Below are positions 23,784 to 35,697 of a DNA stretch of 64,000 nucleotides, in pieces. The notes under the pieces are model-generated. The model had not been told where the DNA came from. It was given only the letters and a program-made list of their open reading frames with translations, and searched no databases. A program made the position numbers and the translations under genes. The number at the start of each line of letters is the position of its first letter. The stretch's first letter is position 1. This DNA is from a phage: sequence record MZ956763.1. One strand, 5' to 3'.

Positions 23784-24127
23784 TACAGTTTCCTCATTAA
23801 ATACTTTTTAAGTTGTGTGTTAGGTTTCTCAAAAACTTCTATAGAAGATATCTTAACAGACTCACCACGCATACCTGTATGTTTGAATATGTAGTACTCT
23901 AACATCCCTATATACTTTGCTGGTAAGTCATGCTTGACATATACCGTCACAGAATCTTCAAATTCAACAACCTTTGTACCATCTTTGTAGTTAAACTCTT
24001 TAGGATGGTTGTAGTTATCTATGTCATACATTAAAAAGAGTCTTTTACGTTGTAAGTCAAGCTTATTTGTTAAAGACTCTTTGATATCTGAGAAGTTTTT
24101 GTAAACTGTGACATGGAGCTTACTCAT
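23783..24127 (-). CDS. hypothetical protein
   Basis: ORF 114 aa. Confidence 0.5.
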   Translation of the reverse strand: MSKLHVTVYKNFSDIKESLTNKLDLQRKRLFLMYDIDNYNHPKEFNYKDGTKVVEFEDSVTVYVKHDLPAKYIGMLEYYIFKHTGMRGESVKISSIEVFEKPNTQLKKYLMRKL

Positions 24128-24413
24128 CGTTAAACTCTCTGACGAAGAAATAGTTGACTTTGTTATTGCCTACCATAAGGTCAAAGCAGGTATTCTCAAA
24201 AGGTTTGTTGTAGGCATCATATGAAACATATGGGTCAGCTACTTGCTTAGTGCTTAACTTCTTACTTGATGGGTTTAAGAGGCCACCATATAGTTTCTTG
24301 ATAGCCTCTTCTACAACAGACCAGATAATTTCGTCAGTAATTTCTTCGTACAGGTCAAGTTCACGCTCTAGTGAGAAGTCACAAATAGGGAAAACAACCT
24401 GTACTTTACTCAT
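24120..24413 (-). CDS. hypothetical protein
   Basis: ORF 97 aa. Confidence 0.5.
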   Translation of the reverse strand: MSKVQVVFPICDFSLERELDLYEEITDEIIWSVVEEAIKKLYGGLLNPSSKKLSTKQVADPYVSYDAYNKPFENTCFDLMVGNNKVNYFFVREFNDE

Positions 24414-24808
24414 TAACGAATAACCTGTGATACTTGAATTGCTTCAGTTACAGACAAATCACCAACTTTCTCTTCTTTGATAAAAGTGAAGGTGATTTCA
24501 ACAGGCTCTTGCTCTTCTTGCTCAACTGGAATGCCATTAAGCTCATCAAAGATTGACTGAGTTGTCCAGTCTTCTCCACCATCTGGATAGTGGATTGCAT
24601 AAAGAGGAAACTCTAAATTATACCAAGCAAAAACAGGGCAACCATCGGCATCATCTCGGCATCTGTGGAGATATGTGTTTGTACCTTCAAAATGCAAATG
24701 CAGATTGCCATTCTTCTCAAATAGAAGAGCATCTTGCAGGTCTAGCTCCTCATTTTCGCTGTAACGACTAACATCAACTTTAACGTGGATATGACTGTTA
24801 TTATTCAT
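24413..24808 (-). CDS. hypothetical protein
   Basis: ORF 131 aa. Confidence 0.5.
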   Translation of the reverse strand: MNNNSHIHVKVDVSRYSENEELDLQDALLFEKNGNLHLHFEGTNTYLHRCRDDADGCPVFAWYNLEFPLYAIHYPDGGEDWTTQSIFDELNGIPVEQEEQEPVEITFTFIKEEKVGDLSVTEAIQVSQVIR

Positions 24809-25199
24809 AAAAACCTCTCTCTGCTTGTTCGATTTTTGCTCTTAAAGCTTCGCAATGTTGTAAATGGTAGTTAGCTTCTTGTTCATGTGTTGCTAACTGC
24901 CTTTCAAGAACAGTTTTATAATAACCTGCAAGTTGCTCTTTTGTCAATGGGTGCTCTGAAATAATATCAAGTCCACTTTCACCAAGAGGGTTGAATTGTC
25001 CATGTTCGTTGACATTGTAAGTCTCAAACTTGAACAGACCATTGTTCACAGACTCAATAGGTGACAGTTCAACAAGCTCTACAGTAAATCGTGTATACAC
25101 CTTATCACCTCTTGAAACTACATTGTTTCCAACAATGCGTACAAGCGAGCCATTACGAGTGTACTTAAAAGTTCCAAAGTCACTAGCCCAAAGTTTCAT
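24801..25199 (-). CDS. hypothetical protein
   Basis: ORF 132 aa. Confidence 0.5.
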   Translation of the reverse strand: MKLWASDFGTFKYTRNGSLVRIVGNNVVSRGDKVYTRFTVELVELSPIESVNNGLFKFETYNVNEHGQFNPLGESGLDIISEHPLTKEQLAGYYKTVLERQLATHEQEANYHLQHCEALRAKIEQAERGFYE

Positions 25200-25214
25200 A
25201 GTTTTCTCCTTAGA

Positions 25215-25240
25215 AAATAAAAAAGGCTCCCGAAGGAGCC
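25215..25240 (-). terminator. intrinsic terminator (minus strand)
   Basis: GGCTCC-TTCG-GGAGCC hairpin with T-run on minus strand, downstream of endolysin gene. Confidence 0.6.
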
Positions 25241-25250
25241 TATGAAGATA

Positions 25251-25715
25251 TTACTTTGGATATACACTGTCAAGATAAATGTCAGCTTCCATTCTACGTC
25301 TGTTTTTCAGACCGTTTGAAGTGACCTTCTTACCTTTGACTGTAACCTTGTTCCACCATTGCATAGCTTCTGCACAACCTGCCTTATTACCATCGTTGTG
25401 GCGCTTGATAAATGTAGAGTCCTGCATAGCTGTGATGCCAATGTTGTATGTTTCACTTACAAGTGCATCAAACTCGTTCTGAGAAGTTGGAACCTTGACG
25501 GATTTATTCACTGCTGCAACGAACTTTTCAACATCTGCGAGAAGATACTGTTCAGCTTGTTCAGCCGTGATTCTCATACCCATCTTAACAGGTTTACCAG
25601 CAATACGGATTGTCCCATACCCAATTGTAGGGATTCCGGCAGAATCTTCGTAAGCCTCTAGCTTAAGACCTTCAAAGAACTTAATAGCTTCTAAGCCTTT
25701 TCTTGAGAGTTGCAT
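25251..25715 (-). CDS. endolysin, T4-type lysozyme (GH24)
   Basis: FFEGLKLEAYEDSAGIPTIGYG carries the Glu/Asp/Thr catalytic triad spacing of T4 lysozyme family. Confidence 0.85.
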   Translation of the reverse strand: MQLSRKGLEAIKFFEGLKLEAYEDSAGIPTIGYGTIRIAGKPVKMGMRITAEQAEQYLLADVEKFVAAVNKSVKVPTSQNEFDALVSETYNIGITAMQDSTFIKRHNDGNKAGCAEAMQWWNKVTVKGKKVTSNGLKNRRRMEADIYLDSVYPK

Positions 25716-27100
25716 TATGCCTCCCCTGCTGGGTTAACTGTAACTGTTGCCGCATTAGATGTTACAGAGCCACCTGCACCAGTCACTACACAAGTGTAGC
25801 TTCCTGAATCAGCAGTGGTTGCACCTTCTTTGGTGTAAGTTGCAGCAGTTGCATCGAGGATGTCTTCCTCACCTTTCTTCCACTGGTAACCTGTCGCACC
25901 TGTTGCCGCAACATTCAGCGTTAAGGTCTCACCTTCAGTGATTTCTTGATTGGTTGGCTGTTGAGTGATTACTGGAAGTGCATTCACAGTAACCGTTGCT
26001 GCGTTAGATGTGACTGTTGTACCACCAGCACCAGTAACTACACAGGTGTAGGAACCAGCATCGGCAGGAACTGCGTTAGCTTTCGTGTAAGTCGCACCAG
26101 TTGCGCTAGGGATGTTCACATTGTCCTTTTTCCACTGGAAACCTTCCGCACCTGTCGCCTCAACACTCAGTGTCAAAGAGTTGCCCTCATTAACTACCTG
26201 ATTGGTTGGCTGCTTGGTAATAACTGGCAAAGCATTTACCGTGACAGTTGCAGGGCTAGAAGTAACAGAACCACCTGCACCTGTTACAACGCAAGTATAT
26301 GAACCTGCATCTGCTGGAAGCGCACCAGACTTGCTATAGGTAGCGTTTGTAGCTGAAGGAATGTCAGAGCCATCTTTCTTCCATTGGTAACCTGTTGCAC
26401 CTGTTGCAGTCACTTCCAAGTTGATGTTCCCACCCTCATTAACGGTCTGACCAGAAGGCTGCTGTGTAATCACAGGCAGTGCGTTGACAGTAACTGTTGC
26501 CGCATCTGAGGTAACACTTGTTCCAGCCTCTCCAGATACAACACAAGTGTATGAACCTGCATCAGAAGGTAATACAGACTGTTTTGTGTAGGTTGCAGAG
26601 GTGGCACTAGTGATATCCTCACCACCCTTTTTCCATTGATATCCAGTGGCATTCGTTGCAACAACACTTAGGGTAAGCGTACCACCTTCATTTACTGTTT
26701 GATTGGTTGGCTGCTGAGTGATTGCTGGTGGCTTGATAGCATCCTTCAACTTAGCATTCAACATTGAGAATGGTTTAACTCTTGCCAGCCATTCACAATA
26801 AACTGTATCAACATCTTTACCATTGATAATTGCATATTGTAAGTCCATGAAGAAGTCAGAAGTTCTCATTTGAGCACCAATGCTGTAAAGCAACTCATCA
26901 CTAAATGGAACTTTGTAGTCTGGTTTGTAGTCAAACTCCTCAACTTCTGCAATATCAGCTTCAGGCCAATACGAACTATAGGTAAGCGGTAAAATAGCCT
27001 CTTGATATGTTCTAAAATCATATCTCTTACCAGCTTTTACGTTTGCAATGAAGCCCTTCACAAACTCTTTGAAGTCTGGGTAAGTCTTTGCTTTAATCAT
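25715..27100 (-). CDS. protein with N-terminal domain plus tandem Ig-like (I-set-like) repeats
   Basis: repeated ~95-aa units NALPVITQQPTNQ..GATGYQWKK..ATYTK..ADAGSYTCVVTGAGG..TS.AATVTV; N-terminal ~120 aa paralogous to 27097..27468. Confidence 0.7.
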   Translation of the reverse strand: MIKAKTYPDFKEFVKGFIANVKAGKRYDFRTYQEAILPLTYSSYWPEADIAEVEEFDYKPDYKVPFSDELLYSIGAQMRTSDFFMDLQYAIINGKDVDTVYCEWLARVKPFSMLNAKLKDAIKPPAITQQPTNQTVNEGGTLTLSVVATNATGYQWKKGGEDITSATSATYTKQSVLPSDAGSYTCVVSGEAGTSVTSDAATVTVNALPVITQQPSGQTVNEGGNINLEVTATGATGYQWKKDGSDIPSATNATYSKSGALPADAGSYTCVVTGAGGSVTSSPATVTVNALPVITKQPTNQVVNEGNSLTLSVEATGAEGFQWKKDNVNIPSATGATYTKANAVPADAGSYTCVVTGAGGTTVTSNAATVTVNALPVITQQPTNQEITEGETLTLNVAATGATGYQWKKGEEDILDATAATYTKEGATTADSGSYTCVVTGAGGSVTSNAATVTVNPAGEA

Positions 27101-27468
27101 TTCTTTTTAGCCTCTAAATGTGCGTTTAGTCTAAAATAACCTTTGTGATGCGGAGATACGTCACCAACAACAATACCTTTCACCTTATAACCTTTACCAA
27201 TTACATACTGGATATCCATAAGAAATCTTCCAAGACCAACAATATGGAACATTGGATATAATAGATTCTCAGAGTCTGGAATATTGATTTCAGGTTTGTA
27301 GGTGCGTTGTTCGCTTGTTGGTGTAATATCTTCTTCAGGCCATTTGCTGAGTCTCCATGTCAAAGGTGTTGGTATAACATCATTAAGGCTGTACCTTTCA
27401 CCATTTTGCACGGAATTGATATAGGATTGTAGGAAGCAATAAAAGTCTTTTGCACTCTTAGCTTTCAT
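27097..27468 (-). CDS. hypothetical protein, paralog of N-terminal domain of Ig-repeat protein
   Basis: 123 aa, shared motifs with N-terminus of 25715..27100. Confidence 0.5.
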   Translation of the reverse strand: MKAKSAKDFYCFLQSYINSVQNGERYSLNDVIPTPLTWRLSKWPEEDITPTSEQRTYKPEINIPDSENLLYPMFHIVGLGRFLMDIQYVIGKGYKVKGIVVGDVSPHHKGYFRLNAHLEAKKK

Positions 27469-27515
27469 TAAATATCCTTATAAATAGTTAAAGGGGCATC
27501 AGCCCCTATTCACAC

Positions 27516-28106
27516 TTAAGCTTTGGTCTTAAGTAGGTTCTTAAGTTTTTTAAGATTCATACTCTCATCAAACTTAAAACCAAATCCATTGACATAATCA
27601 ATGAACTCGGATTTCTTACTGAGTGACAATGCGTAACTCATATCAAAGTTCTTACTCGTTTCTGCGTCTGGACTAGAGTTCACATCAAATGAAATTTCTG
27701 TAGGCTCTTGCTTACTTTTCCTCATATTATCAACCAACAAACATGTATAGTTTGCTGGATAGAAGTTTACACTGCCATCAACGTAGCTGTACTTATTATT
27801 ATGGATAAGGTTGGAAAATACCTTAAGGAATGTTTCTGAGTCGTGGCAAACAAGTTTGAATTGGCTGCTCTCTCCAAGCGCAACTAATGAGTACGGACTT
27901 TCACTATCAAAGTTATAATTTGGATTTGATGCCGTCACTGTTACACGCATCAAGTTATTAGCAATAGTCTTCTGTTTAAAAGAATTTTGAACATAGTGAA
28001 GACCTCTATCACATTGATTGACTAGCTCTTTAAGTAGGTCATTTGCATATGGTGAATTAATTGATACAGAGCCATCACTATTGTAATTAAAACTTACTGT
28101 TAACAT
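27516..28106 (-). CDS. hypothetical protein
   Basis: ORF 196 aa. Confidence 0.5.
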   Translation of the reverse strand: MLTVSFNYNSDGSVSINSPYANDLLKELVNQCDRGLHYVQNSFKQKTIANNLMRVTVTASNPNYNFDSESPYSLVALGESSQFKLVCHDSETFLKVFSNLIHNNKYSYVDGSVNFYPANYTCLLVDNMRKSKQEPTEISFDVNSSPDAETSKNFDMSYALSLSKKSEFIDYVNGFGFKFDESMNLKKLKNLLKTKA

Positions 28107-28333
28107 TTTTCAGTTCTCCTGCGATTTATAATTTTGCTGCAATAGAGAAACGAAGTAAACTCACTGGAAGAAACCATTAAGTGTTGTTCACTAGATTGAG
28201 CCATTGCCCTGAAATACATTCCAGTCAAAGCATCATAGTGACTATTCTTTCCAATTGAGGTTATATAGCCATGACTCTTTGCAGTTTGATATAAATCTAT
28301 AATATCTGCGATTTCTAATTGGGAACTACACAT
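28100..28333 (-). CDS. hypothetical protein
   Basis: ORF 77 aa. Confidence 0.4.
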   Translation of the reverse strand: MCSSQLEIADIIDLYQTAKSHGYITSIGKNSHYDALTGMYFRAMAQSSEQHLMVSSSEFTSFLYCSKIINRRRTEKC

Positions 28334-28725
28334 AGATAATCCTCTTGTCTTCTGTAATTTTGAAAGAACAGGTACAGACCAATTTCAGAGGATGAATAGT
28401 AGATTAACTCTACCCTTTTTGATTCCTTACAGTGATTGGTATTCTTACCTTTCTTCGGTTTATTTGATTTTCTCATTAAGTCTCCTTTGTAGAACAAGGC
28501 AGACCTACAGCTTTAAGTAAGATGGTACAGTAATCCATACAACAAGTCAAGAACTATTGCAAGTTAAAAAAGTTGTTGACAAAGTACTTGACAAGGTGTA
28601 GGCTTATAAATACTTAGAAGATAACTTAAAAGGTTCCTCTAAAAAGGCTATTTAAACAGATATCTTTCTGGATATCTATCTTTTATCTTAAAAGCCTTTT
28701 AAGAGGTCTTATAAGAGGCACACCA

Positions 28726-29097
28726 ATGAAAAACAGAACAAACAAAGGCCAGTTTAAAAAAGGCCAGTCTGGAAACCCATCTGGAAGACCCAAAGGCTCT
28801 CGTAACAAAAGTTCACTCGTAAAAGCTCAACTGACCATTGATAATTCTGCTGAGTTTGCTGCAAAGTTGTTTGAGGCGATTGTTACAAGGGACGCTGCTA
28901 AGCTTGCAGAGTTCGGGTTAAACACAGATGACGTAACCATCAAGAGTATGATTGAGGTCGGTAAAACTATCTTTACTCACTCAGCAGGTGAGATGAAAGC
29001 ACTTGCAGCAGACACTAAGAAGACTCCTGATAATGGTGGTCAACAACAGACAGATAACAAACCAACGTTCTCTGCTGTAGCGACTCTCAAAAAATAA
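28726..29097 (+). CDS. hypothetical protein with N-terminal GNPSGRPKG basic motif
   Basis: ORF 123 aa. Confidence 0.5.
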   Translation: MKNRTNKGQFKKGQSGNPSGRPKGSRNKSSLVKAQLTIDNSAEFAAKLFEAIVTRDAAKLAEFGLNTDDVTIKSMIEVGKTIFTHSAGEMKALAADTKKTPDNGGQQQTDNKPTFSAVATLKK

Positions 29098-29178: not shown

Positions 29179-30594
29179 ATGAGCGAGTTATTTAAACATG
29201 CGCACCTTCATGCAGGTCGAACTGAAAATGGTGCTGTAAACCATACTTCATCAATGTCTGCTCTGGTAGACTTCTACAAAGCTGCTGGTTCAAGCCGTAG
29301 CAATGTAGAAATCTTACCAGACCTGTTCTACAAAGCTTTGCATGAGGATGTTGATGTTGCAGTTCGTATTTTACTGCATATGCGAGATGTACGAGAAGGT
29401 ATGGGTGAGCGTAAAGCCTTCAGGACTGTTTTGCTTCAAGCAATTGAAGATAAAGTTTTAGAGTCTACACAGGTTCTTCGCATTATGGATAAGATTGCAG
29501 AACTTGGTCGTTTTGATGACTTCAAAATCTTCGTAGGTACTCGCTTCGAGACAGATGCCTTCAAACATTTAGAAGCAGCATTACTAGACCCTGCAACAGC
29601 AGGTTTGGCAGCTAAGTGGTTGCCACGAGTCAAACCACGTCACAAACAGTTTGTAAAACGTTTCTGCAAGTTTGCCAACTTGAGTGAGAAAGAGTACCGC
29701 ACACTGTTGTCTGCACTATCTGATACAGTTGAGCAAAAAATCTCTGCTAATGAGTTTGGCAAGATTGACTACAGCAAGATTCCTTCACTTGCTGCTGCAC
29801 GTTACCAAAAACTGTTTAACCGTAAAGATGGAGAACGCTACAAAGCTTACATTGAGTCTTTATCAAAAGGTGAGACTAAGATTAACGCTGGTGCTGTTTA
29901 CCCATACGATGTGATTAAATCTGTCAAGCATGGTAATGCAGATGTTGCTAATGAGCAGTGGAAAGCACTACCAAACTGGATGGCAGAAGGTGAAAACATC
30001 TTGTGTATGACTGATGTTTCAAGCTCAATGTCTTGGGTGAATTTTGGCTCCATTACTGCTCTGGATATTGGTGTATCACTTGCATTGTATGTGGCAGAAC
30101 GCAATACAGGTTGCTTTAAGAATGAGTTGATGGTTTATTCAACAAACCCTCACTTCATCGAACTTAGTGGTGATTTACGAAACCGCCATCGTCAGGTGAT
30201 GCGACATGTTGAATATGGTTCAACTAACTTACAAGCAGCTTTTGACCGTATTCTTGAGACAGGTAAAAGAAACAACTTGACTCAGAAAGATATGCCAAGT
30301 AAGCTTATCATCTTCTCCGATATGGAGTTCAATCAGGTTGATGGAGCTAACGGTCGTACAAACTTTGAAGCAATTCAGAGTAAGTACAAGAAAGCTGGAT
30401 ACGAAATGCCACAACTGGTATTCTGGTACTTAGCAAACCGTAATGGTACTTGCGAAGTGTCTGTTAAGGATAACGGTGTAGCAATGGTATCTGGTTTCTC
30501 TCCAGCCACTTTAAAAGCTCTGCTTGGTGGTGAGAAGTTTGACCCAATCAGCGTAATGCTCAAAGCAGTAATGATTGACCGCTATATCTGGTAA
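29179..30594 (+). CDS. vWA-domain protein, candidate Ro60/TROVE-like (Rsr-like) RNA-binding protein
   Basis: 471 aa; MIDAS-like DxSxS (MTDVSSSMS) with downstream T and D (IIFSDMEF); ~270-aa helical N-terminal region; placed immediately upstream of tRNA/structured-RNA cluster. Confidence 0.5.
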   Translation: MSELFKHAHLHAGRTENGAVNHTSSMSALVDFYKAAGSSRSNVEILPDLFYKALHEDVDVAVRILLHMRDVREGMGERKAFRTVLLQAIEDKVLESTQVLRIMDKIAELGRFDDFKIFVGTRFETDAFKHLEAALLDPATAGLAAKWLPRVKPRHKQFVKRFCKFANLSEKEYRTLLSALSDTVEQKISANEFGKIDYSKIPSLAAARYQKLFNRKDGERYKAYIESLSKGETKINAGAVYPYDVIKSVKHGNADVANEQWKALPNWMAEGENILCMTDVSSSMSWVNFGSITALDIGVSLALYVAERNTGCFKNELMVYSTNPHFIELSGDLRNRHRQVMRHVEYGSTNLQAAFDRILETGKRNNLTQKDMPSKLIIFSDMEFNQVDGANGRTNFEAIQSKYKKAGYEMPQLVFWYLANRNGTCEVSVKDNGVAMVSGFSPATLKALLGGEKFDPISVMLKAVMIDRYIW

Positions 30595-30759: not shown

Positions 30760-30836
30760 CTCTGTTTAGCTCAGCTTGGTAGAGCGTTCCGTTTGGGGCG
30801 GTAAGGCCGGAGGTTCAAGTCCTCCAACAGAGACCA
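30760..30836 (+). tRNA. tRNA-Pro (anticodon TGG)
   Basis: acceptor CTCTGTT/AACAGAG, T-arm GGAGG-TTCAAGT-CCTCC, anticodon loop TTTGGGG, CCA encoded. Confidence 0.8.
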
Positions 30837-30843
30837 AATTAAT

Positions 30844-30921
30844 GTTCCAGTAGACAAAATGGTAAAGTCACCACTCTTTCAAAGTGGATATCTGAGGGTT
30901 CAAATCCCTTCTGGAACGCCA
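30844..30921 (+). tRNA. tRNA-Glu (anticodon TTC)
   Basis: acceptor GTTCCAG/CTGGAAC, anticodon arm CCACT-CTTTCAA-AGTGG, T-loop TTCAAAT. Confidence 0.8.
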
Positions 30922-30926
30922 GTTTT

Positions 30927-31003
30927 GACAGAAGACCAATTACAGCAAACTTAATCTTATTCATCTGAAGGTAAATCGGACAAAGAAGAGATTTGGTCTG
31001 GTC
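30927..31003 (+). ncRNA. structured element A (conserved ACAGAAGACC...GGTCTGG terminal stem)
   Basis: 5' GACAGAAGACCAATTACAGCAA, 3' ATTTGGTCTGGTC; family members at 31095, 31576, 31663. Confidence 0.45.
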
Positions 31004-31013
31004 ATTAAGAATT

Positions 31014-31089
31014 GCGGGTATAGAGAAAGGGCGTCTCACATGTCTCATTAGCATGGTATCGGCAGGTTCGACTCCTGCACCCGCCTCCA
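31014..31089 (+). tRNA. tRNA-Met (anticodon CAT)
   Basis: D-stem GAGA/TCTC, anticodon arm CATGT-CTCATTA-GCATG, T-arm GCAGG-TTCGACT-CCTGC; acceptor pairing imperfect by eye. Confidence 0.65.
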
Positions 31090-31094
31090 AATTT

Positions 31095-31160
31095 ACAGAA
31101 GACCGTTTACAGCAATATTTATTAAATTTTTAGCGGAAAAATTGAAAGATACGGTCTGGT
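31095..31160 (+). ncRNA. structured element B (ACAGAAGACCG...CGGTCTGG stem)
   Basis: same terminal stem motif and TTACAGCAA box as element A. Confidence 0.45.
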
Positions 31161-31172
31161 AATACTAAACAT

Positions 31173-31249
31173 GGTTAGGAAGCACATAAGGTATGTGCGG
31201 TCGCCTGTTAAGCGAATGGCACAGGGTTCGAATCCCTGACTAACCGCCA
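31173..31249 (+). tRNA. tRNA-Asn (anticodon GTT)
   Basis: acceptor GGTTAGG/ACTAACC, D-stem GCAC/GTGC, loop CTGTTAA, T-arm CAGGG-TTCGAAT-CCCTG. Confidence 0.8.
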
Positions 31250-31318
31250 AATTTAGGAGAGAAGCGATTGCTCACCGATTTGTAAGGTGCAAGTCCTTAG
31301 CCTGAATAGAAATTAAAT

Positions 31319-31405
31319 GTGTCGTTATCCCGTAGATGGTAGCGGTGGGGACTGTAAATCCCTTGTCATTGAGACTCGGTAGGTTCGACTCCTACACGGC
31401 ACACC
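31319..31405 (+). tRNA. tRNA-Tyr (anticodon GTA), class II
   Basis: acceptor GTGTCGT/ACGGCAC, anticodon arm GGGGA-CTGTAAA-TCCCT, long variable arm, T-loop TTCGACT. Confidence 0.75.
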
Positions 31406-31411
31406 AATAAA

Positions 31412-31489
31412 GGCTATGTAGTTTAATAGGGTTAAAATACTCCCCTGTCACGGGAGATGATGTGAGTTCAAGTCTCATCGTAGCCGCCA
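31412..31489 (+). tRNA. tRNA-Asp (anticodon GTC)
   Basis: acceptor GGCTATG/CGTAGCC, anticodon arm CTCCC-CTGTCAC-GGGAG, T-loop TTCAAGT. Confidence 0.8.
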
Positions 31490-31575
31490 AATTATAATAA
31501 GTATTTCAAAATGATGTTTTGAGAGGGCTATTTAGCCCCTCCCTTAAAGAGTTCTTACGAGTATTCTTTAAAGGA

Positions 31576-31651
31576 GCAGAAGACCAAATACAGCAAGTTA
31601 CTTAAAATTTCAAGCCAATTTAATTTTGAAAAATTTAAAACTTGGTCTGGC
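31576..31651 (+). ncRNA. structured element C (GCAGAAGACCAAATACAGCAA...TTGGTCTGG)
   Basis: same terminal stem motif family. Confidence 0.45.
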
Positions 31652-31662
31652 TCAACAAATTT

Positions 31663-31794
31663 ACAGAAGACCGTTTACAGCAAAACTTAAACAATCTATT
31701 TCTCGGTAAAGAAAAGGAGAAGGTTCGATTCCTTCACTCGGCAGATGTCGAGTTGGTGTAATGGTAGCACTTAAGATGGTAAACAACGGTCTGG
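31663..31794 (+). ncRNA. structured element D with internal permuted tRNA-like domain (candidate YrlA-like Y RNA)
   Basis: terminal stem ACAGAAGACCGTTT/AAACAACGGTCTGG; internal order T-arm (GAAGG-TTCGATT-CCTTC), acceptor 3' strand ACTCGGC, loop AGAT, acceptor 5' strand GTCGAGT, D-arm GTGTAATGGTAGCAC. Confidence 0.5.
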
Positions 31795-31938
31795 TAATTA
31801 TCTTTGTAGATAAGTTATTAAGCTTACCTGTGAGTATGCGACCACAAAGGGTGAAAGGGTAAATTCTAGATTTAAACCCAAAAAGGCACATCGCTACAGA
31901 CCTTAAGCAAGTCTGGGTAGCTTATCTACAAAGATAAT
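31795..31938 (+). repeat. 19-bp perfect inverted repeat flanking a 106-nt segment
   Basis: AATTATCTTTGTAGATAAG at 31795-31813 and exact reverse complement CTTATCTACAAAGATAATT at 31920-31938. Confidence 0.85.
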
Positions 31939-31943
31939 TTAAT

Positions 31944-32019
31944 GGAAGTGTAGCAGAATGGTGATGCGGCAGACTTTTAATCTGACAGGCGATGGGTTCG
32001 AATCCCTCCACTTCTACCA
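31944..32019 (+). tRNA. tRNA-Lys (anticodon TTT)
   Basis: acceptor GGAAGTG/CACTTCT, anticodon arm GCAGA-CTTTTAA-TCTGA, T-loop TTCGAAT; T-stem weak by eye. Confidence 0.65.
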
Positions 32020-32023
32020 AAAT

Positions 32024-32100
32024 GGTTCAGTCGCAGATAAGGTAATGCAAGGGTTTCATAAGCCCTATGAATGTGGGTTCGATTCCCATCTGAACCTCCA
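32024..32100 (+). tRNA. tRNA with CAT anticodon (Met, fMet or Ile-lysidine)
   Basis: acceptor GGTTCAG/CTGAACC, anticodon arm AGGGT-TTCATAA-GCCCT, T-arm GTGGG-TTCGATT-CCCAT. Confidence 0.7.
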
Positions 32101-32102
32101 AT

Positions 32103-32177
32103 TGTGGGTTAGCATAAATGGTAATGCAAACGGCTGATAACCGTTAGAAGAGGGTTCGATACCCTCACCTACAACCA
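32103..32177 (+). tRNA. tRNA-Ile (anticodon GAT)
   Basis: acceptor TGTGGGT/ACCTACA, D-stem GCAT/ATGC, anticodon arm AACGG-CTGATAA-CCGTT, T-loop TTCGATA. Confidence 0.8.
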
Positions 32178-32192
32178 ATTTCAATAGAGTTG

Positions 32193-32221
32193 TTGACATT
32201 GAGATGTGACTACTTTATAGT
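32193..32221 (+). promoter_or_regulatory. sigma70-like promoter TTGACA-17-TATAGT inside tRNA cluster
   Basis: consensus -35, good -10; followed by ~290 nt without tRNA. Confidence 0.55.
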
Positions 32222-32514
32222 AACTAAAATACTTCACAATATGTATAATTCAAACACCAATACATGAGCGTTAGACGTAACACAATGTGGGGAAATTTGT
32301 TGTACATATTCTGAATAGTTTTCGTTGCGTAGCGTCTATTTTGCAAATTTAAAATAAATGCAAACGACAATGTTTTTCTGGCAGTAGCTTGATAGGCTAA
32401 ACACCAGTGAGGTCTTCCAATCCCTCATCAAAGAATTTGGCGTACTCGCCCACGGTATGATTAATAAGGTGGGCATCTTTAAGGGCTTTCTAAGAGAGTC
32501 TTTAAAGATAATTA

Positions 32515-32596
32515 CGGGGCGTATCTCAGCGGTCTTCTAAACCGCCGTTAACCGAGTAAGTGGAGTATGCGGGTTCGAGTCCTGCCGCCTCGACCA
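32515..32596 (+). tRNA. atypical tRNA-like gene, possible tRNA-Arg (anticodon TCT)
   Basis: acceptor CGGGGCG/CGCCTCG + A + CCA, T-arm GCGGG-TTCGAGT-CCTGC, arm GCGGT-CTTCTAA-ACCGC; no canonical D-arm found by eye, 23-nt segment before T-arm. Confidence 0.45.
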
Positions 32597-32738
32597 ATTT
32601 AGTTAGCAGATTACTTAGACGACCTAAGCGGGTCTTCCTGTAGGGAGGTGGTCTGTATCTCATGTTTTCCAGAACATGTAAATAATCTGAGAAGGGGCTT
32701 TACAGTGTTGAGATAATACGGTAAGCTTCGAATTATAG

Positions 32739-32822
32739 TGTGGGACGATGTTAAGACTCTAAGGCATGAGCAACGGCCTCCAAAACCGTTTCAAAGGGGT
32801 TCAACTCCTCCGTCCCATGCCA
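32739..32822 (+). tRNA. atypical tRNA, possible tRNA-Trp (anticodon CCA)
   Basis: acceptor GTGGGAC/GTCCCAT + G + CCA, anticodon arm ACGGC-CTCCAAA-ACCGT, T-loop TTCAACT; D-region ~8 nt longer than canonical. Confidence 0.5.
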
Positions 32823-32835
32823 AAGTCTTATTAGG

Positions 32836-32923
32836 GGTAGGTAGCGGCTAATGGCAGCCAAACAGTCTTGAAAACTGTTGCCACTGTAGAGATACGGTGA
32901 GGGTTCGACTCCTTTACTTACCG
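32836..32923 (+). tRNA. tRNA-Ser (anticodon TGA), class II
   Basis: acceptor GGTAGGT/ACTTACC, anticodon arm ACAGT-CTTGAAA-ACTGT, 20-nt variable arm, T-arm GAGGG-TTCGACT-CCTTT. Confidence 0.7.
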
Positions 32924-33180
32924 CCTAATAAGATTTAAAGCCAAGCTTCATTCGGATGTCGCTTTGGTATCCCGCGTGTATTGTCGTACACACTGATAAA
33001 ACACCTAGTAGGTGTCACGGAGAAGAGATAATATCAAGCTCTCCAAAGGTTCTAGTCACCGGATTAAACAAGACTATGCAAAGACCTTTTTAGGTCTTTT
33101 TAGAGGGCTTCTAAGGTTATTACAGCTTGTTGTGGAACCTTGTTGCTTAGGTTCTTAGAAGTTCTCTAAAAAGATTTAAT

Positions 33181-33258
33181 GGGAGATTGACGGTAATTGG
33201 TAAACCTACCATCCTTAGAAGTTGGTGTTTGAGGGTTCGAATCCCTTGTCTCCTACCA
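33181..33258 (+). tRNA. tRNA with TAG anticodon (Leu by anticodon) but short variable arm
   Basis: acceptor GGGAGAT/GTCTCCT + A + CCA, anticodon arm CCATC-CTTAGAA-GTTGG, T-arm GAGGG-TTCGAAT-CCCTT, variable ~5 nt. Confidence 0.55.
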
Positions 33259-33265
33259 AATTAAT

Positions 33266-33341
33266 GCAGGTGTAGCAAAATGGTTATGCGGCTGACTCTT
33301 AATCAGTAAGACGATGGGTTCAATTCCCTCCACCTGTACCA
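33266..33341 (+). tRNA. tRNA-Lys (anticodon CTT)
   Basis: paralog of 31944 tRNA; acceptor GCAGGTG/CACCTGT, anticodon arm GCTGA-CTCTTAA-TCAGT. Confidence 0.65.
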
Positions 33342-33347
33342 GACATT

Positions 33348-33423
33348 GGGGTCATAGTTTATATGGTTAAAATTCGAGTTTTGCAAACTTGGGAACTGAG
33401 TTCAATTCTCAGTGACTCCACCA
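33348..33423 (+). tRNA. tRNA-Ala (anticodon TGC)
   Basis: acceptor GGGGTCA/TGACTCC, anticodon arm CGAGT-TTTGCAA-ACTTG, T-arm CTGAG-TTCAATT-CTCAG. Confidence 0.8.
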
Positions 33424-33429
33424 ATTAGT

Positions 33430-33504
33430 GCATCCATAGTTTAAACGGGAAAATTACAGTCTTCCAAACTGAGGTTGAGGGTTCGATTCCCTCTGGATGC
33501 TCCA
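33430..33504 (+). tRNA. tRNA-Gly (anticodon TCC)
   Basis: acceptor GCATCCA/TGGATGC, anticodon loop CTTCCAA, T-arm GAGGG-TTCGATT-CCCTC. Confidence 0.8.
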
Positions 33505-33511
33505 AATTAAT

Positions 33512-33587
33512 GCTCCTATCGTATAATAGGCTATTACGGTTGCCTTGTAAGCAACTTATCAGGGTTCGAATCCTTGTGGGAGCACCA
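33512..33587 (+). tRNA. tRNA-Thr (anticodon TGT)
   Basis: acceptor GCTCCTA/TGGGAGC, anticodon arm GTTGC-CTTGTAA-GCAAC, T-loop TTCGAAT. Confidence 0.8.
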
Positions 33588-33590
33588 ATT

Positions 33591-33677
33591 CAGAGGTCAA
33601 GTGAAAGACCGCTGGTGTCAACTGAAGACCGTAACAAATTCCACGGAGTTGAGTTAGCGGCACAACTTCAGACCTCT
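33591..33677 (+). ncRNA. structured element E (CAGAGGTC...GACCTCT stem, internal AAGACCG boxes)
   Basis: inverted repeat AGAGGTC/GACCTCT enclosing ~70 nt containing two copies of the GAAGACCG box. Confidence 0.35.
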
Positions 33678-33681
33678 TTCA

Positions 33682-33757
33682 CACTCGCTTAGTTTATATG
33701 GTAAAACACCACCCTTACAAGATGAAGAAAAAGGTTCAAGTCCTTTAGTGAGTACCA
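33682..33757 (+). tRNA. tRNA-like gene, possibly tRNA-Val (TAC) or pseudogene
   Basis: acceptor ACTCGCT/AGTGAGT + A + CCA, D-stem GTTT/AAAC, T-arm AAAGG-TTCAAGT-CCTTT; anticodon-region CCACC-CTTACAA-GATGA does not pair. Confidence 0.4.
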
Positions 33758-33758
33758 T

Positions 33759-33836
33759 GTTCCAGTATCCCAATTGGCAGAGGATGCAAGCTCAAACCTT
33801 GTATTAGTGACGGTTCGAATCCGTCTTGGAACACCA
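33759..33836 (+). tRNA. tRNA with CAA anticodon (Leu by anticodon) but short variable arm
   Basis: acceptor GTTCCAG/TTGGAAC + A + CCA, anticodon arm GCAAG-CTCAAAC-CTTGT, T-arm GACGG-TTCGAAT-CCGTC, variable 6 nt. Confidence 0.6.
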
Positions 33837-33855
33837 ATTTTAAGAGGCTATTTAG

Positions 33856-34413
33856 ATGAGATATTTGAAGTATGCTTCATGGATTTTCCTAGCTTTACTA
33901 GAGCCATTTGCAGCAACCCTATCAGTCATCTTAGCACCTTTCGTAGTTCCATTCTACAGTGAGAAGAAAGGACACCTACCTTTTGGATTCAGATGGATGG
34001 AGACCTATGACAACCCAATTGATGGTGATGAAGGTCACGTTAAAAGATGGGCTAAGATTAGAAAGATTGGTAAGCTGGGTGTCTACATGCAGAGAGTTGG
34101 ATGGCTCTGGAGAAACAAAGCTTATAACTTCTCTTACCATGTATTAGGAAGAGATGTAAAAGATGTTACTAAGTGGAAAGGTAATATCAACGTAAGTTCT
34201 GACCCTGAAGATAATCAGACAGGTTATCTCCTAATGTGGAACAACAATGCTTGGGGATTATTCGCTTTTATTCCGTCAATTAAAATCTTTGGTAAACAGT
34301 TTTACTGGAGAATTTATGTTGGATGGAAACTAAAAAGTGTTGTCCCAGAAGAAAGAGCATTCTCAAGGGAAAGAGTTATGTTGGCATTCTTTATTCATCC
34401 ACTGAGAAAGTAA
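33856..34413 (+). CDS. hypothetical membrane-associated protein encoded inside tRNA cluster
   Basis: ORF 185 aa, hydrophobic N-terminus (WIFLALLEPFAATLSVILAPFVVPF), Trp/Lys-rich. Confidence 0.45.
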   Translation: MRYLKYASWIFLALLEPFAATLSVILAPFVVPFYSEKKGHLPFGFRWMETYDNPIDGDEGHVKRWAKIRKIGKLGVYMQRVGWLWRNKAYNFSYHVLGRDVKDVTKWKGNINVSSDPEDNQTGYLLMWNNNAWGLFAFIPSIKIFGKQFYWRIYVGWKLKSVVPEERAFSRERVMLAFFIHPLRK

Positions 34414-34421
34414 AGATTTAA

Positions 34422-34497
34422 AGGGGATTAGTTTACAAGGTTAAAACCTCGGTCTTTGAAATCGAAGAAGTTGGTTCAATTCCAACATCCCCAGCCA
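34422..34497 (+). tRNA. tRNA-Gln (anticodon TTG)
   Basis: D-stem GTTT/AAAC, anticodon arm TCGGT-CTTTGAA-ATCGA, T-arm GTTGG-TTCAATT-CCAAC, 3' ATCCCCA-G-CCA. Confidence 0.7.
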
Positions 34498-34499
34498 AT

Positions 34500-34579
34500 G
34501 CTCCATTACTCCAATTGGCAGAGAGGCCAGACTTAAAATCTGTGTTATGTATCGGTTCGAATCCGATATGGAGTACCAA
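34500..34579 (+). tRNA. tRNA with TAA anticodon (Leu by anticodon) but short variable arm
   Basis: acceptor GCTCCAT/ATGGAGT + A + CCA, anticodon arm CCAGA-CTTAAAA-TCTGT, T-arm ATCGG-TTCGAAT-CCGAT. Confidence 0.6.
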
Positions 34580-34584
34580 TTTTA

Positions 34585-34660
34585 GCGGTATAGCATAATT
34601 GGCAATGCAACAGTCTCTGAAGCTGTCCTATTAAGGTTCAAATCCTTATACCGCTGCCAC
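34585..34660 (+). tRNA. tRNA-Gln (anticodon CTG)
   Basis: acceptor AGCGGTA/TACCGCT, D-stem GCAT/ATGC, anticodon arm ACAGT-CTCTGAA-GCTGT, T-arm TAAGG-TTCAAAT-CCTTA. Confidence 0.7.
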
Positions 34661-34691
34661 TTCTAAGGGTTCTTACGAGAGTCCTTAAATG

Positions 34692-34767
34692 TGGCCTTAT
34701 CATAAATGGTAATGACCCATGCTGTGAACATGGTCTATACGGGTTCAAATCCCGTAGGTCACCCCAA
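34692..34767 (+). tRNA. tRNA-His (anticodon GTG)
   Basis: acceptor GTGGCCT/AGGTCAC, D-stem TCAT/ATGA, anticodon arm CCATG-CTGTGAA-CATGG, T-arm ACGGG-TTCAAAT-CCCGT. Confidence 0.8.
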
Positions 34768-34772
34768 TTTAT

Positions 34773-34849
34773 AGTCCAAGTAGCTTATATGGTTAAAGCG
34801 CGTGTCTGAAAAACATGAGAAGAGGGTTCAAATCCCACTGGACTACCAA
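34773..34849 (+). tRNA. tRNA-Phe (anticodon GAA)
   Basis: acceptor TAGTCCA/TGGACTA, anticodon arm CGTGT-CTGAAAA-ACATG, T-loop TTCAAAT; 3' CCA not fully encoded. Confidence 0.7.
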
Positions 34850-34864
34850 TTTCAAAGGTGCTTA

Positions 34865-35599
34865 ATGAAAGAGATGACAGAACAAGGTAAGGAGATTTTT
34901 AATCTCTTAAAAACCGGTAAAGGGTTTTCTAACCCACTTATTACTGGTGCAGCAGTTCTCGGTGGAACCGTAGCTGCCTCTACATCACTTGTAAGCTCTA
35001 TTAGCTCTGTAACAGACCCTACAATGAATGAGAAACTTGTTGCTGCTGGACTTACAACAGTCCTTCTAAACAGCTTTACAACAAGCCTGACAAGCACTAC
35101 AGCAACTACTAAGACCCTAACAGACTATGGTCAAAAGTCTATTGATGAGTTTTCATCACGTATGCAGGTAGCAAAGGGATACTCCAATGTTATGGGTGCA
35201 GCAGGAGAACAAGTTGGTTGTACACCGTTCAGTGGTATTATGGGTGTTGCTACAGAATATGGTCAAAAAGCTATTGATACGATTAACAGTACACTAGAGA
35301 GTGTTAACGATGTATTAAGTGACTTACAAGACGCTATTGACAAGGGTCTTGATACTGTTTCTGATTTAGCTAACCAAGCTGTCAGTAAGATTAATGAAGG
35401 TATCTCAAAGATTACAGCTTATGCAGATGAAGTTGTGCAGATGATTGAAGAAGAAGCTGCCCTTATTGCAGAGTACCTTAAAACGAATATCAATGGGTTC
35501 TTAGCAGGTATCTTACCAGACTGGTTTGATGATGCTTGTAAAACTGGTGTGATTGACACTATTGCAACACCAGAAATGAAGAACGCATTACAGAAATAA
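34865..35599 (+). CDS. hypothetical Ser/Thr/Ala-rich protein (between tRNA-Phe and tRNA-Ser)
   Basis: start moved to ATG 34865 (MKEMTEQG..) because ORF-track start lies inside tRNA-Phe; 244 aa. Confidence 0.5.
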   Translation: MKEMTEQGKEIFNLLKTGKGFSNPLITGAAVLGGTVAASTSLVSSISSVTDPTMNEKLVAAGLTTVLLNSFTTSLTSTTATTKTLTDYGQKSIDEFSSRMQVAKGYSNVMGAAGEQVGCTPFSGIMGVATEYGQKAIDTINSTLESVNDVLSDLQDAIDKGLDTVSDLANQAVSKINEGISKITAYADEVVQMIEEEAALIAEYLKTNINGFLAGILPDWFDDACKTGVIDTIATPEMKNALQK

Positions 35600-35600
35600 T

Positions 35601-35693: not shown

Positions 35694-35697
35694 ATTT

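What the first reader, a model, noticed from the sequence alone, without database searches (positions are those of the whole stretch)
25715..27468. Ig-repeat protein and a repeat-less paralog directly upstream of the endolysin
25715..27100 has an N-terminal ~120-aa domain followed by four to five tandem ~95-aa Ig-like units with conserved W and C positions (GYQWKK ... SYTCVV); at DNA level the repeats are ~290-bp tandem copies. 27097..27468 is a paralog of just the N-terminal domain. Ig-like domains in phages usually decorate virions and bind carbohydrates; here the gene sits in a leftward non-structural block next to the lysozyme.
Basis: seen in the sequence. Interest (0 to 1): 0.45.

Follow-up and report, generated by a model that had tools for sequence, protein, structure and literature searches.

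The report
Phage head-decoration protein and anchor-only paralog
The Ig-repeat gene is the already published Hoc-like head-decoration protein of Felix O1-type phages (a 93%-identical protein has been seen on the capsid by cryo-EM), and the only undescribed part is the small gene in front of it, a conserved, late-expressed copy of the capsid-anchor domain alone, whose job is unknown.

Summary
ORF 25715..27100(-) encodes 461 aa: an N-terminal ~124-aa domain plus four (not five) I-set Ig units of 83-84 aa (249-252 bp, not ~95 aa/290 bp). ORF 27097..27468(-) is a true paralog of the N-terminal domain.

The window is a Felixounavirus. The 461-aa protein is ~93% identical to PDB 9NCF chain S (Bas63 'Hex-Dec') and homologous to 9C2D chain S (Sf14 gp20). 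[quoted passage not shown] The Ig string projects outward. Its position outside the structural module and its 1-4 Ig copy-number variation are both published, so the main gene is already known. The database label 'tail protein' is wrong.

The 123-aa paralog is not mentioned in those papers or in the PhageMaP text. It is translationally coupled to Hex-Dec (ATGA overlap) and under purifying selection (dN/dS 0.07-0.20). The order paralog-HexDec-endolysin holds in Felixounavirus, Mooglevirus and a divergent metagenomic phage. Its Felix O1 counterpart is transcribed late but absent from virion proteomes. It is basic and lacks both capsid-contact arginines. Its function is open; I favour a non-virion role in head or Hex-Dec assembly.

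The parts
27097..27468 (-). Stand-alone paralog of the capsid-binding domain (123 aa, PHROG 4463, no Pfam or NCBIfam family). Counterparts: Felix O1 gp37, wV8 gp42, Sf14 gp21, bas63_0125.
   Evidence: ORF. phrog_4463 E=1.3e-79. 37% identity to the Hex-Dec N-terminus, E=7e-17. PDB hits only 9ncf_S and 9c2d_S. dN/dS 0.07-0.20. Full length in 233 of 253 phage records.
27097..27100 (-). ATGA overlap: paralog stop codon and Hex-Dec start codon share 4 bases (translational coupling).
   Evidence: Sequence AAGAAATGATTAAAG. The same overlap is annotated in wV8, Sf14 and Bas63; in the metagenomic contig L007 the junction shares 1 base.
26729..27100 (-). Hex-Dec capsid-binding domain (CapBD, aa 1-124), with Arg79 and Arg107 that contact capsid Asp221 in Sf14.
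   Evidence: Aligns residue for residue with 9ncf_S and 9c2d_S. R79 and R107 are present; across the Hex-Dec alignment R79 is invariant and R107 is >=90% conserved. Contacts are described in PMC11821841.
26477..26728 (-). Ig unit 1 (aa 125-208).
   Evidence: 94-96% identical to Ig1 of wV8 and Bas63.
26228..26476 (-). Ig unit 2 (aa 209-291).
25976..26227 (-). Ig unit 3 (aa 292-375), the variable cassette: absent from wV8 and only 67% identical to Bas63 Ig3.
   Evidence: alignment to 9ncf_S.
25727..25975 (-). Ig unit 4 (aa 376-458), the terminal unit retained in every wV8/REP9/HK3-type form compared.
   Evidence: 89-93% identical to the last unit of Bas63, wV8 and REP9, and 87% to the single unit of HK3.
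25251..25715 (-). Endolysin (T4-type lysozyme, 154 aa). Its ATG overlaps the Hex-Dec stop codon by one base (TAATG).
   Evidence: Pfam Phage_lysozyme E=6.6e-41; junction sequence.
27490..27506 (-). GC-rich hairpin (GGGGC-TGAT-GCCCC + TTT) just upstream of the paralog's ribosome-binding site. Annotated as a rho-independent terminator in wV8. It bounds the three-gene unit at its 5' side.
   Evidence: Sequence; wV8 annotation. My simple scan did not flag it because the T-run is short.
25224..25241 (-). Terminator hairpin AGGCTCCTTCGGGAGCCT + T-run after the endolysin: the 3' end of the unit.
   Evidence: wV8 annotation.
41915..43021 (+). Major capsid protein, the binding partner of Hex-Dec. Asp221 is conserved.
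   Evidence: ~99% identical to 9ncf_A (E=3.4e-247), with D at position 221.

Best explanation
SHOWN, by near-identity to solved structures: 25715..27100(-) encodes the Felixounavirus hexamer-centre head-decoration protein (Bas63 Hex-Dec/gp124, Sf14 gp20, Felix O1 gp36). Its N-terminal ~120-aa CapBD inserts as a monomer into the acidic centre of a capsid hexamer. Arg79 and Arg107 form salt bridges with Asp221 of three capsid subunits. Only the 60 pentamer-proximal hexamers of the T=9 head are occupied; the 20 hexamers on the true three-fold axes are not.

INFERRED: the four acidic I-set Ig domains (pI 4.3) form a flexible string projecting from the head. By analogy with T4 Hoc, this string gives weak, conditionally useful adhesion to surfaces. 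In-register recombination between the ~250-bp units sets its length anywhere from 1 to 4 units.

SHOWN: 27097..27468(-) is an ancient duplicate of the CapBD alone. It is translated from the same late message through an ATGA overlap and kept under purifying selection.

INFERRED, about 40% likely: the paralog still acts on the head or the Hex-Dec loading step inside the infected cell. For example, it could transiently engage hexamer centres or the Hex-Dec anchor. It is not retained in the finished virion, because its conserved C-terminal lobe has been rebuilt, is basic, and lacks both contact arginines.
For: Identity of the Ig protein:
- 461 aa versus 9NCF chain S: E=1.6e-270, aligned over residues 1-459; 9C2D chain S: E=1.8e-204.
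- The capsid protein in the same window is ~99% identical to 9ncf_A, with D221 present. R79 and R107 are present.
- The published location, stoichiometry and contacts are in PMC12609058 and PMC11821841.
- Felix O1 gp36 gave 14 peptides and 44% coverage in CsCl-purified virions.
- Ig fold.

Conditional benefit: Bas63 g124 is dispensable on three E. coli strains and more essential on S17-1 (PhageMaP preprint).

Copy number: locus spans fall into steps of 2000, 1748, 1499 and 1247 bp in a 60-record sample, giving 4, 19, 20 and 11 records with 4, 3, 2 and 1 units. wV8 = Ig1+Ig2+Ig4.

Paralog:
- Homology.
- The paralog clade and the CapBD clade each have 100% NJ bootstrap support, with mirrored topology.
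- The same gene order holds in wV8, Sf14, Bas63 and the metagenomic contig L007, where the paralogs are only ~45-48% identical.
- dN/dS is 0.07-0.20.
- Felix O1 ORFs 36 and 37 are both maximally expressed at 60 min, together with the portal, sheath and fibre genes.
- 41 positions are conserved within each family but differ between them, including R79->G; R107 aligns with H/Q.
- The paralog has pI 9.1, with +5 net charge in its C-terminal half; the CapBD has pI 5.2.
Against: For the Ig protein, essentially none. However, nothing shows what the Ig domains bind, and the adhesion role is by analogy.

For the paralog's proposed role there is no direct evidence of any interaction:
- It is absent from the Felix O1 virion protein list, where nothing numbered 37-48 was found although proteins of 9.7-13 kDa were detected.
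- It is absent from Sf14 Table 1.
- Both cryo-EM studies report no density on the remaining hexamers.
- About 19 Felixounavirus isolates, such as REP9 and Z31, have lost it. REP9 keeps only a decayed remnant with a ~220-bp internal deletion yet has an intact Hex-Dec. The paralog is therefore not required for Hex-Dec or for plaque formation.
- Kolesnikvirus has a CapBD-Big_2 protein next to its endolysin and no paralog.
- My AlphaFold2 model of the paralog is poor (pLDDT 58).
Confidence: 0.8

Rival explanations
1. The paralog is itself a virion protein: an Ig-less cap that occupies the 20 true three-fold hexamers, or procapsid hexamers, which Hex-Dec cannot bind. The two paralogs would then divide the quasi-equivalent hexamers between them.
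For: It has the same fold family as a hexamer-centre plug. Its rebuilt, basic C-terminal lobe could suit the acidic Asp-lined hexamer centre, whose Asp221 geometry differs at three-fold hexamers according to PMC11821841. It is expressed late and coupled to Hex-Dec. A monomer sitting on a three-fold axis would be smeared by icosahedral averaging.
Against: Both cryo-EM papers report no density at those hexamers. A 14-kDa plug on the axis should still leave central density after averaging (my inference). It was not detected in the Felix O1 virion proteome, although smaller and rarer proteins were, and it is not listed for Sf14. Isolates that have lost it are viable.
Confidence: 0.1
2. The paralog has been neofunctionalised away from the capsid. 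It keeps the fold but now binds something else, such as a nucleic acid, a host envelope or defence component, or a lysis-related partner. It sits in the operon only by descent.
For: Both capsid-contact arginines are lost, and 41 family-specific substitutions are concentrated in the lobes that are most conserved. Charge is reversed: pI 9.1 against 5.2. It evolves faster than the CapBD: 45% against 59% identity over the same divergence. It is absent from virions. It is dispensable in some lineages.
Against: The strict coupling and gene order have persisted since before the Felixounavirus/Mooglevirus split. Late timing matches the structural genes rather than the endolysin, which peaks at 25 min. 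There is no hit to any defence, DNA-binding or lysis family.
Confidence: 0.3
3. The upstream ORF is a decaying leftover of a duplication with no function.
For: It has been lost or pseudogenised in a minority clade. No function is known for it.
Against: It is 122-124 aa without frameshifts in 233 of 253 phage records. dN/dS is 0.07-0.20. It is retained at ~45-48% identity in a distant metagenomic lineage in the same position. It is transcribed late in Felix O1.
Confidence: 0.03
4. The Ig protein is a tail protein, as most GenBank, RefSeq and PHROG annotations say.
For: phrog_3995 is labelled 'tail protein', E=3.9e-241. Many records carry the 'tail protein' label. Ig domains also occur on tail tube proteins.
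Against: Homologs were modelled into capsid hexamer-centre density in two independent cryo-EM studies. The Bas63 paper states explicitly that the tail annotation is wrong.
Confidence: 0.02

Closest known systems
Bas63 (Escherichia phage JohannRWettstein) Hex-Dec, gp124, PDB 9NCF chain S
   Same: Both have an N-terminal CapBD plus four I-set Ig domains, and lengths of 460 and 461 aa at ~93% identity. Both have the same neighbours: paralog bas63_0125 upstream and the endolysin downstream. The capsid proteins are ~99% identical.
   Different: The third Ig unit is a different cassette, 67% identical, whereas units 1, 2 and 4 are 92-96% identical. The Bas63 paper says only Bas63 among 18 ICTV species has four units. 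This window and at least seven GenBank isolates also have four.
Shigella phage Sf14 (Mooglevirus) gp20, PDB 9C2D/9C3A chain S
   Same: The CapBD is 85-88% identical and keeps R79 and R107. Gene order is gp21 (paralog), gp20, gp19 (endolysin). It was detected in virions and occupies only pentamer-proximal hexamers.
   Different: It has three Ig units, which are only ~55-68% identical to those here.
[quoted passage not shown]
   Same: Works alike: a monomer at hexamer centres, a string of Ig-like domains projecting outward, dispensable, with a variable Ig number among relatives (PMC12609058 and PMC11821841). PHROG 'Hoc-like' families match the Ig region.
   Different: In Hoc the capsid-binding domain is C-terminal; here it is N-terminal. 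The CapBD here is larger, pseudo-two-fold and topologically distinct, with minimal sequence similarity. The PHROG Hoc-like hits cover only aa ~290-459, the Ig part. I have seen no anchor-only paralog described for Hoc in the papers read.
Kolesnikvirus (Erwinia phage phiEa21-4/phiEa104) gp038 and other distant CapBD proteins (P0100-P0104)
   Same: They carry a homologous CapBD (profile E=3e-10 to 2e-4) at the N-terminus of a short protein. In phiEa104 it also lies just upstream of the endolysin.
   Different: The displayed module differs: one Big_2 domain (P0100, P0101), a Big-like domain (P0103), one I-set domain (P0102), or a Lys/Ser-rich tail (P0104). There is no stand-alone paralog in phiEa104.
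T5 pb10 head decoration protein (PDB 5LXK, 8ZVI)
   Same: [quoted passage not shown] Its Ig domain gives a sequence hit (E~1e-11).
   Different: It has a single Ig domain. Only the Ig region matches, at query aa 217-373.

Membership tests
Ounavirinae Hex-Dec / Sf14 gp20 hexamer-centre decoration protein (applied to 25715..27100) | N-terminal ~120-aa capsid-binding domain homologous to the solved CapBD | tested here: met
   phmmer against PDB: 9ncf_S E=1.6e-270 over residues 1-459; 9c2d_S E=1.8e-204.
Ounavirinae Hex-Dec / Sf14 gp20 hexamer-centre decoration protein (applied to 25715..27100) | One to four C-terminal Ig-like domains | tested here: met
   Four Ig_3/I-set stretches. AlphaFold2 pLDDT 91-96 in this region. 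Foldseek top hits are Robo, titin and Sidekick Ig arrays.
Ounavirinae Hex-Dec / Sf14 gp20 hexamer-centre decoration protein (applied to 25715..27100) | Contact residues Arg79 and Arg107, and capsid protein Asp221 | tested here: met
   R79 and R107 are present; R79 is invariant and R107 >=90% conserved in the Hex-Dec alignment. The capsid protein at 41915..43021 has D221. Contacts are defined in PMC11821841.
Ounavirinae Hex-Dec / Sf14 gp20 hexamer-centre decoration protein (applied to 25715..27100) | Gene lies immediately upstream of the endolysin, outside the structural module | tested here: met
Ounavirinae Hex-Dec / Sf14 gp20 hexamer-centre decoration protein (applied to 25715..27100) | Physically bound at the 60 pentamer-proximal hexamers of this phage's own T=9 capsid | not testable with these tools
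   Shown only for Bas63 and Sf14. Inferred here from 93% (Hex-Dec) and ~99% (capsid protein) identity.
T4 Hoc family | Homologous capsid-binding domain at the C-terminus after the Ig domains | tested here: not met
   The anchor is N-terminal. PHROG Hoc-like matches cover only the Ig region, e.g. phrog_2973 at aa 290-459. No Pfam family covers aa 1-123. The Bas63 paper reports a distinct topology and reversed order. It works like Hoc but is not a Hoc homolog in its anchor.
Phage tail protein (the database label) | Component of the tail | tested here: not met
   The nearest solved homologs are chains of icosahedral capsid reconstructions. The annotation is stated to be wrong in PMC12609058.
Hex-Dec CapBD fold family (applied to the paralog 27097..27468) | Sequence and fold homology to the CapBD over its full length | tested here: met
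   BLASTP E=7e-17. PDB hits only 9ncf_S and 9c2d_S. 34 shared conserved positions. The secondary-structure order matches (H, H, H, E, E). The top Foldseek hits are 9c2d_S and 9ncf_S, but TM is only 0.46-0.49 from a low-confidence model.
Functional capsid decoration protein (applied to the paralog 27097..27468) | Conserved capsid-contact arginines (R79, R107) | tested here: not met
   R79 aligns with an invariant Gly, and R107 with His/Gln, in all 20 paralogs aligned.
Functional capsid decoration protein (applied to the paralog 27097..27468) | Present in purified virions | tested here: inconclusive
   Literature only. Felix O1 gp37 is not among the virion proteins found by MS. Sf14 gp21 is not in Table 1. 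It is not modelled in Bas63. The raw spectra and VpaE1 Table S2 could not be examined.
Carbohydrate- or mucin-binding Ig decoration (Hoc 'adherence to mucus' model) | Ig domains bind glycans | not testable with these tools
   There are no binding data for this family. The only functional hint is that Bas63 g124 is more essential on E. coli S17-1.

The most novel reading that the evidence does not exclude
The anchor-only paralog is a second hexamer-centre binder, tuned to the hexamer conformation that Hex-Dec cannot bind. That conformation could be the 20 true three-fold hexamers or hexamers of the unexpanded procapsid. Under this reading a duplicated anchor pair 'reads' quasi-equivalent capsomer states and sets the 60-of-80 decoration pattern. 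The paralog would have been missed because it is labile, sub-stoichiometric or averaged out.
Probability: 0.1. Interest if true: 0.55.

Novelty: already known. Interest (0 to 1): 0.27.

Why it matters
- Annotation: this gene and its relatives are still labelled 'tail protein' in most of the ~230 related genomes. It is a head-decoration protein with solved structures.
- Engineering: a ~120-aa N-terminal anchor that loads 60 copies per head, and naturally carries one to four Ig units, a Big_2 domain or a simple tail, is an evident display scaffold.
- Biology: the one open point is the anchor-only paralog. It is conserved, late and translationally coupled, yet unmentioned in the two structural papers and in the text of the gene-essentiality preprint. 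It is a cheap, well-defined handle on why only the pentamer-proximal hexamers are decorated, or on how a decoration anchor is re-used for another job. Neither would change how phage heads are understood in general.

Tried and rejected
- Tandem Repeats Finder on 24000..29000 found no ~250-bp array. The units are too diverged (63-70% DNA identity), so I delimited them from the protein motifs instead.
- I looked for a shared late-promoter-like motif using the sequence between the upstream hairpin and the paralog (TATTTATAAGG, 1 mismatch). It gave 4 hits against 1.9 expected, which is not significant. The sigma-70 scan found fewer sites than shuffles and none placed to drive the unit. Promoter not identified.
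- AlphaFold2 on the paralog with a 30-sequence alignment gave pLDDT 58, with residues 34-77 below 50. I use it only for the order of secondary-structure elements and the top two fold hits.
- The search for homologous proteins with the CapBD returned almost only <=215-aa, one-Ig forms. This looks like a candidate-collection bias, because 293-, 377- and 460-aa forms clearly exist. I took the copy-number distribution from DNA spans instead.
- Virion proteomics for the paralog: VpaE1 Table S2 is not in the held supplement. The wV8 paper covers only the tail fibre. Doore et al. 2018 is not held. PhageMaP supplements are not held, and its text never mentions g125. STGO-35-1 turned out to be an unrelated siphovirus.
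- NCBIfam gave nothing useful for either protein.
- I considered that REP9-type phages carry a paralog/Hex-Dec fusion. I rejected this: their Hex-Dec CapBD is 97% identical to the normal one, and a decayed paralog remnant lies upstream.
Full report
WHAT IS THERE

On the minus strand, ORF 27097..27468 (123 aa) ends in an ATGA overlap with the start of ORF 25715..27100 (461 aa). The stop codon of that ORF overlaps by one base (TAATG) the start of a T4-type lysozyme, 25251..25715. A GC-rich hairpin lies just before the first gene's ribosome-binding site, at 27490..27506. It is annotated as a terminator in phage wV8. A clear terminator follows the lysozyme at 25224..25241. The three genes therefore look like one unit.

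The 461-aa protein has an N-terminal ~124-aa domain with no Pfam match, followed by four Ig units (Ig_3 E=2e-43, I-set 1.8e-33). The units are aa 125-208, 209-291, 292-375 and 376-458. They are 69-73% identical in protein and 63-70% in DNA, against 51% for shuffled DNA. Tandem Repeats Finder misses them. A full-length AlphaFold2 model is confident (mean pLDDT 89; Ig region 91-96). Its best PDB fold matches are Robo, titin and Sidekick Ig arrays.

WHAT IT IS

The window is a Felix O1-like myophage. The region is 96.7% identical in DNA to Salmonella phages DaR-2019b and vB_Si_DR094, and about 230 Felixounavirus records match it. Against the PDB, the 461-aa protein matches 9NCF chain S ('immunoglobulin-like domain protein', 460 aa) at E=1.6e-270 over its whole length. 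It matches 9C2D/9C3A chain S at E=1.8e-204. These are the icosahedral capsid reconstructions of phage Bas63 (PMC12609058) and Shigella phage Sf14 (PMC11821841).

Both papers describe the protein (Hex-Dec in Bas63, gp20 in Sf14) as a Hoc-like decoration protein:
- The N-terminal ~118-aa capsid-binding domain (CapBD) sits as a monomer in the centre of a hexamer of the T=9 head.
- Only the pentamer-proximal (facet-edge) hexamers are occupied, one per asymmetric unit, hence 60 per head. The hexamers on the true three-fold axes are empty.
- The Ig domains are flexible and unresolved.
- In Sf14, Arg79 and Arg107 of gp20 form salt bridges with Asp221 of three capsid subunits.

The window protein keeps R79 and R107. 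The window's capsid protein (41915..43021, ~99% identical to 9ncf_A) keeps D221. Virion presence has independent support. Sf14 gp20 was found by mass spectrometry. Felix O1 gp36, called a 'tail protein' of 31.6 kDa, gave 14 peptides and 44% coverage from CsCl-banded phage.

The Felix O1 genome paper remarks on gene 36 lying far from the morphogenesis genes. The Bas63 paper says the gene is more than 10 kb outside the structural module and that the usual 'tail protein' annotation is wrong. The main gene is therefore already known.

COPY-NUMBER VARIATION

In a 60-record spread sample of related phages, the locus span falls into steps of 2000, 1748, 1499 and 1247 bp. This gives 4, 19, 20 and 11 records with four, three, two and one Ig unit. 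Annotated lengths agree: 377 aa in wV8, 293-294 aa in REP9 and VpaE1, and 210 aa in HK3. The Bas63 paper already reports one to four units. Two small additions follow.

First, four-unit forms are not unique to Bas63. The window and at least seven isolates have them: DaR-2019a, DaR-2019b, vB_Si_DR094, MET-P1-301, AN17P8, pinkbiff and ZX4221.

Second, unit-by-unit comparison shows that the losses are internal rather than C-terminal. wV8 is Ig1+Ig2+Ig4, and the single unit of HK3 is Ig4-like (87%). The window's Ig3 is only 67% identical to Bas63's Ig3, while Ig1, Ig2 and Ig4 are 92-96% identical. This is what in-register recombination among ~250-bp repeats would produce (inference).

FUNCTION OF THE Ig STRING

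Nothing here or in the papers shows what the Ig domains bind. The string is strongly acidic (pI 4.3), as the Bas63 authors note for Hex-Dec and Hoc. In a genome-wide knockout screen of Bas63, g124 was dispensable on DH10B, BW25113 and MG1655 but more essential on S17-1. That fits a conditionally useful adhesion role. 'Binds carbohydrate' remains an analogy to T4 Hoc.

THE PARALOG

The 123-aa ORF belongs to PHROG 4463 (function unknown) and has no Pfam or NCBIfam hit. It is homologous to the CapBD over its full length:
- BLASTP gives 37% identity, E=7e-17.
- Its only PDB hits are the two Hex-Dec chains.
- 34 positions are conserved in both families, mostly hydrophobic core plus a WPExDI motif.
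- The order of predicted helices and strands is the same.
- 9c2d_S and 9ncf_S are the top fold hits even for a poor model.

The terms 'paralog', gp21 and gp125/g125 do not occur in the main texts searched: the two structural papers for 'paralog' and gp21, and the knockout-screen preprint for gp125/g125. Within the library I could search, the paralogy is undescribed.

It is a real, selected gene. It is full-length (122-124 aa) in 233 of 253 phage records. dN/dS is 0.07 against wV8 and 0.19 against Sf14. The gene order paralog, Hex-Dec, endolysin with an overlapping stop/start junction recurs in wV8, Sf14 (gp21-gp20-gp19), Bas63 (0125-0124-0123) and an 87-kb metagenomic contig. In that contig the paralog is only ~45-48% identical and the CapBD 59% identical to those here. 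In a neighbour-joining tree the paralogs and the CapBDs form two clades, each with 100% bootstrap support and mirrored branching. This indicates a single old duplication followed by co-inheritance.

An exhaustive profile search of 1.84 billion representative proteins finds only 12 representatives. The family is therefore narrow. Elsewhere the anchor carries other cargo: Big_2 in Kolesnikvirus, a Big-like or single I-set domain, or a Lys/Ser-rich tail. Kolesnikvirus has the anchor-Big_2 gene next to its endolysin but no paralog.

In Felix O1, RT-PCR placed ORFs 36 and 37 together in the latest class (60 min) with the portal, sheath and fibre genes. The lysin (35) peaked at 25 min.

WHAT THE PARALOG PROBABLY DOES NOT DO

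It does not look like a stable virion component:
- Felix O1 virion proteomics detected nothing numbered 37-48, although it found proteins of 9.7-13 kDa.
- Sf14's table of virion proteins lists gp20 but not gp21.
- Both reconstructions report no density on the undecorated hexamers.

It has also diverged where it matters. R79 aligns with an invariant Gly and R107 with His/Gln. Forty-one positions are fixed differently in the two families. The protein is basic (pI 9.1, with +5 net charge in the C-terminal half), whereas the CapBD is acidic (pI 5.2).

It is dispensable in at least one clade. About 19 records lack it. REP9 retains a decayed remnant with a ~220-bp internal deletion in front of an intact two-Ig Hex-Dec. 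Conversely, phage ST11 has an intact paralog and a fragmented Hex-Dec.

MOST LIKELY MECHANISM

What is shown: the Ig protein is the hexamer-centre decoration protein, and the paralog is a conserved, late, translationally coupled, anchor-only duplicate.

What is inferred: I judge it about 40% likely that the paralog still works on the head or on Hex-Dec loading inside the cell, transiently and without being packaged. The remainder is unassigned. None of these could be tested with single-chain structure prediction and sequence tools. The decisive tests are listed separately.

VERDICT

The main gene is already known, with solved structures and a published description of its position and copy-number variation. 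The paralog is a modest, apparently unreported lead. Interest is low to moderate.

Noticed in passing
window 25251..25715 (-): The endolysin's Bas63 counterpart (g123) is reported in the PhageMaP preprint as becoming more non-essential in several defence strains. It was tested there as a trigger of the Ec67 retron. The decoration operon therefore also carries a defence-sensed gene.
   Followed up: no
window 30760..35773 (+): ARAGORN finds an array of 24 tRNA genes. Rfam additionally calls a weak tRNA-like element at 32515..32593 (31.7 bits) that ARAGORN does not list.
   Followed up: partly
window 29179..30594 (+): A 471-aa protein with DUF2828 + DUF7788 (phrog_850 'RNA-binding protein', E=9e-184) is transcribed divergently from the decoration/lysis block and lies immediately upstream of the tRNA array. 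Any RNA partner was not examined.
   Followed up: no
window 27516..28106 (-): A conserved 196-aa protein of unknown function (phrog_4034, E=4e-115; no Pfam or NCBIfam family) always precedes the paralog/Hex-Dec unit. A similarly sized gene occupies the same slot in Kolesnikvirus phiEa104 (gp039).
   Followed up: no
L003 (Escherichia phage REP9) 2806..2997; L004 (Shigella phage Z31); L002 (Salmonella phage ST11) 3369..4250: These are natural knock-outs. REP9 has a decayed paralog remnant and an intact two-Ig Hex-Dec. Z31 lacks the paralog and has a split Hex-Dec. ST11 has an intact paralog and a Hex-Dec broken into three ORFs. They are ready-made material for testing both genes, if the breaks are not sequencing errors.
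   Followed up: partly
window 25976..26227 (-): The third Ig unit is a different cassette from the third unit of Bas63 (67% identity, against 92-96% for the other three units). At least two independent four-unit architectures therefore exist.
   Followed up: partly
L007 4001..5726 (metagenomic contig ERZ28599557 scaffold_93, 87 kb): A divergent, unclassified Ounavirinae-like phage carries the same trio of paralog, CapBD + two Ig, and lysozyme (P0098/P0099). No phage record in the collection is more than 49% identical to its paralog.
   Followed up: partly
window 24413..24808 (-): The 131-aa ORF two genes downstream of the endolysin corresponds to a gene labelled 'D-alanyl-D-alanine carboxypeptidase' in several related records. 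I did not check whether that label is justified.
   Followed up: no
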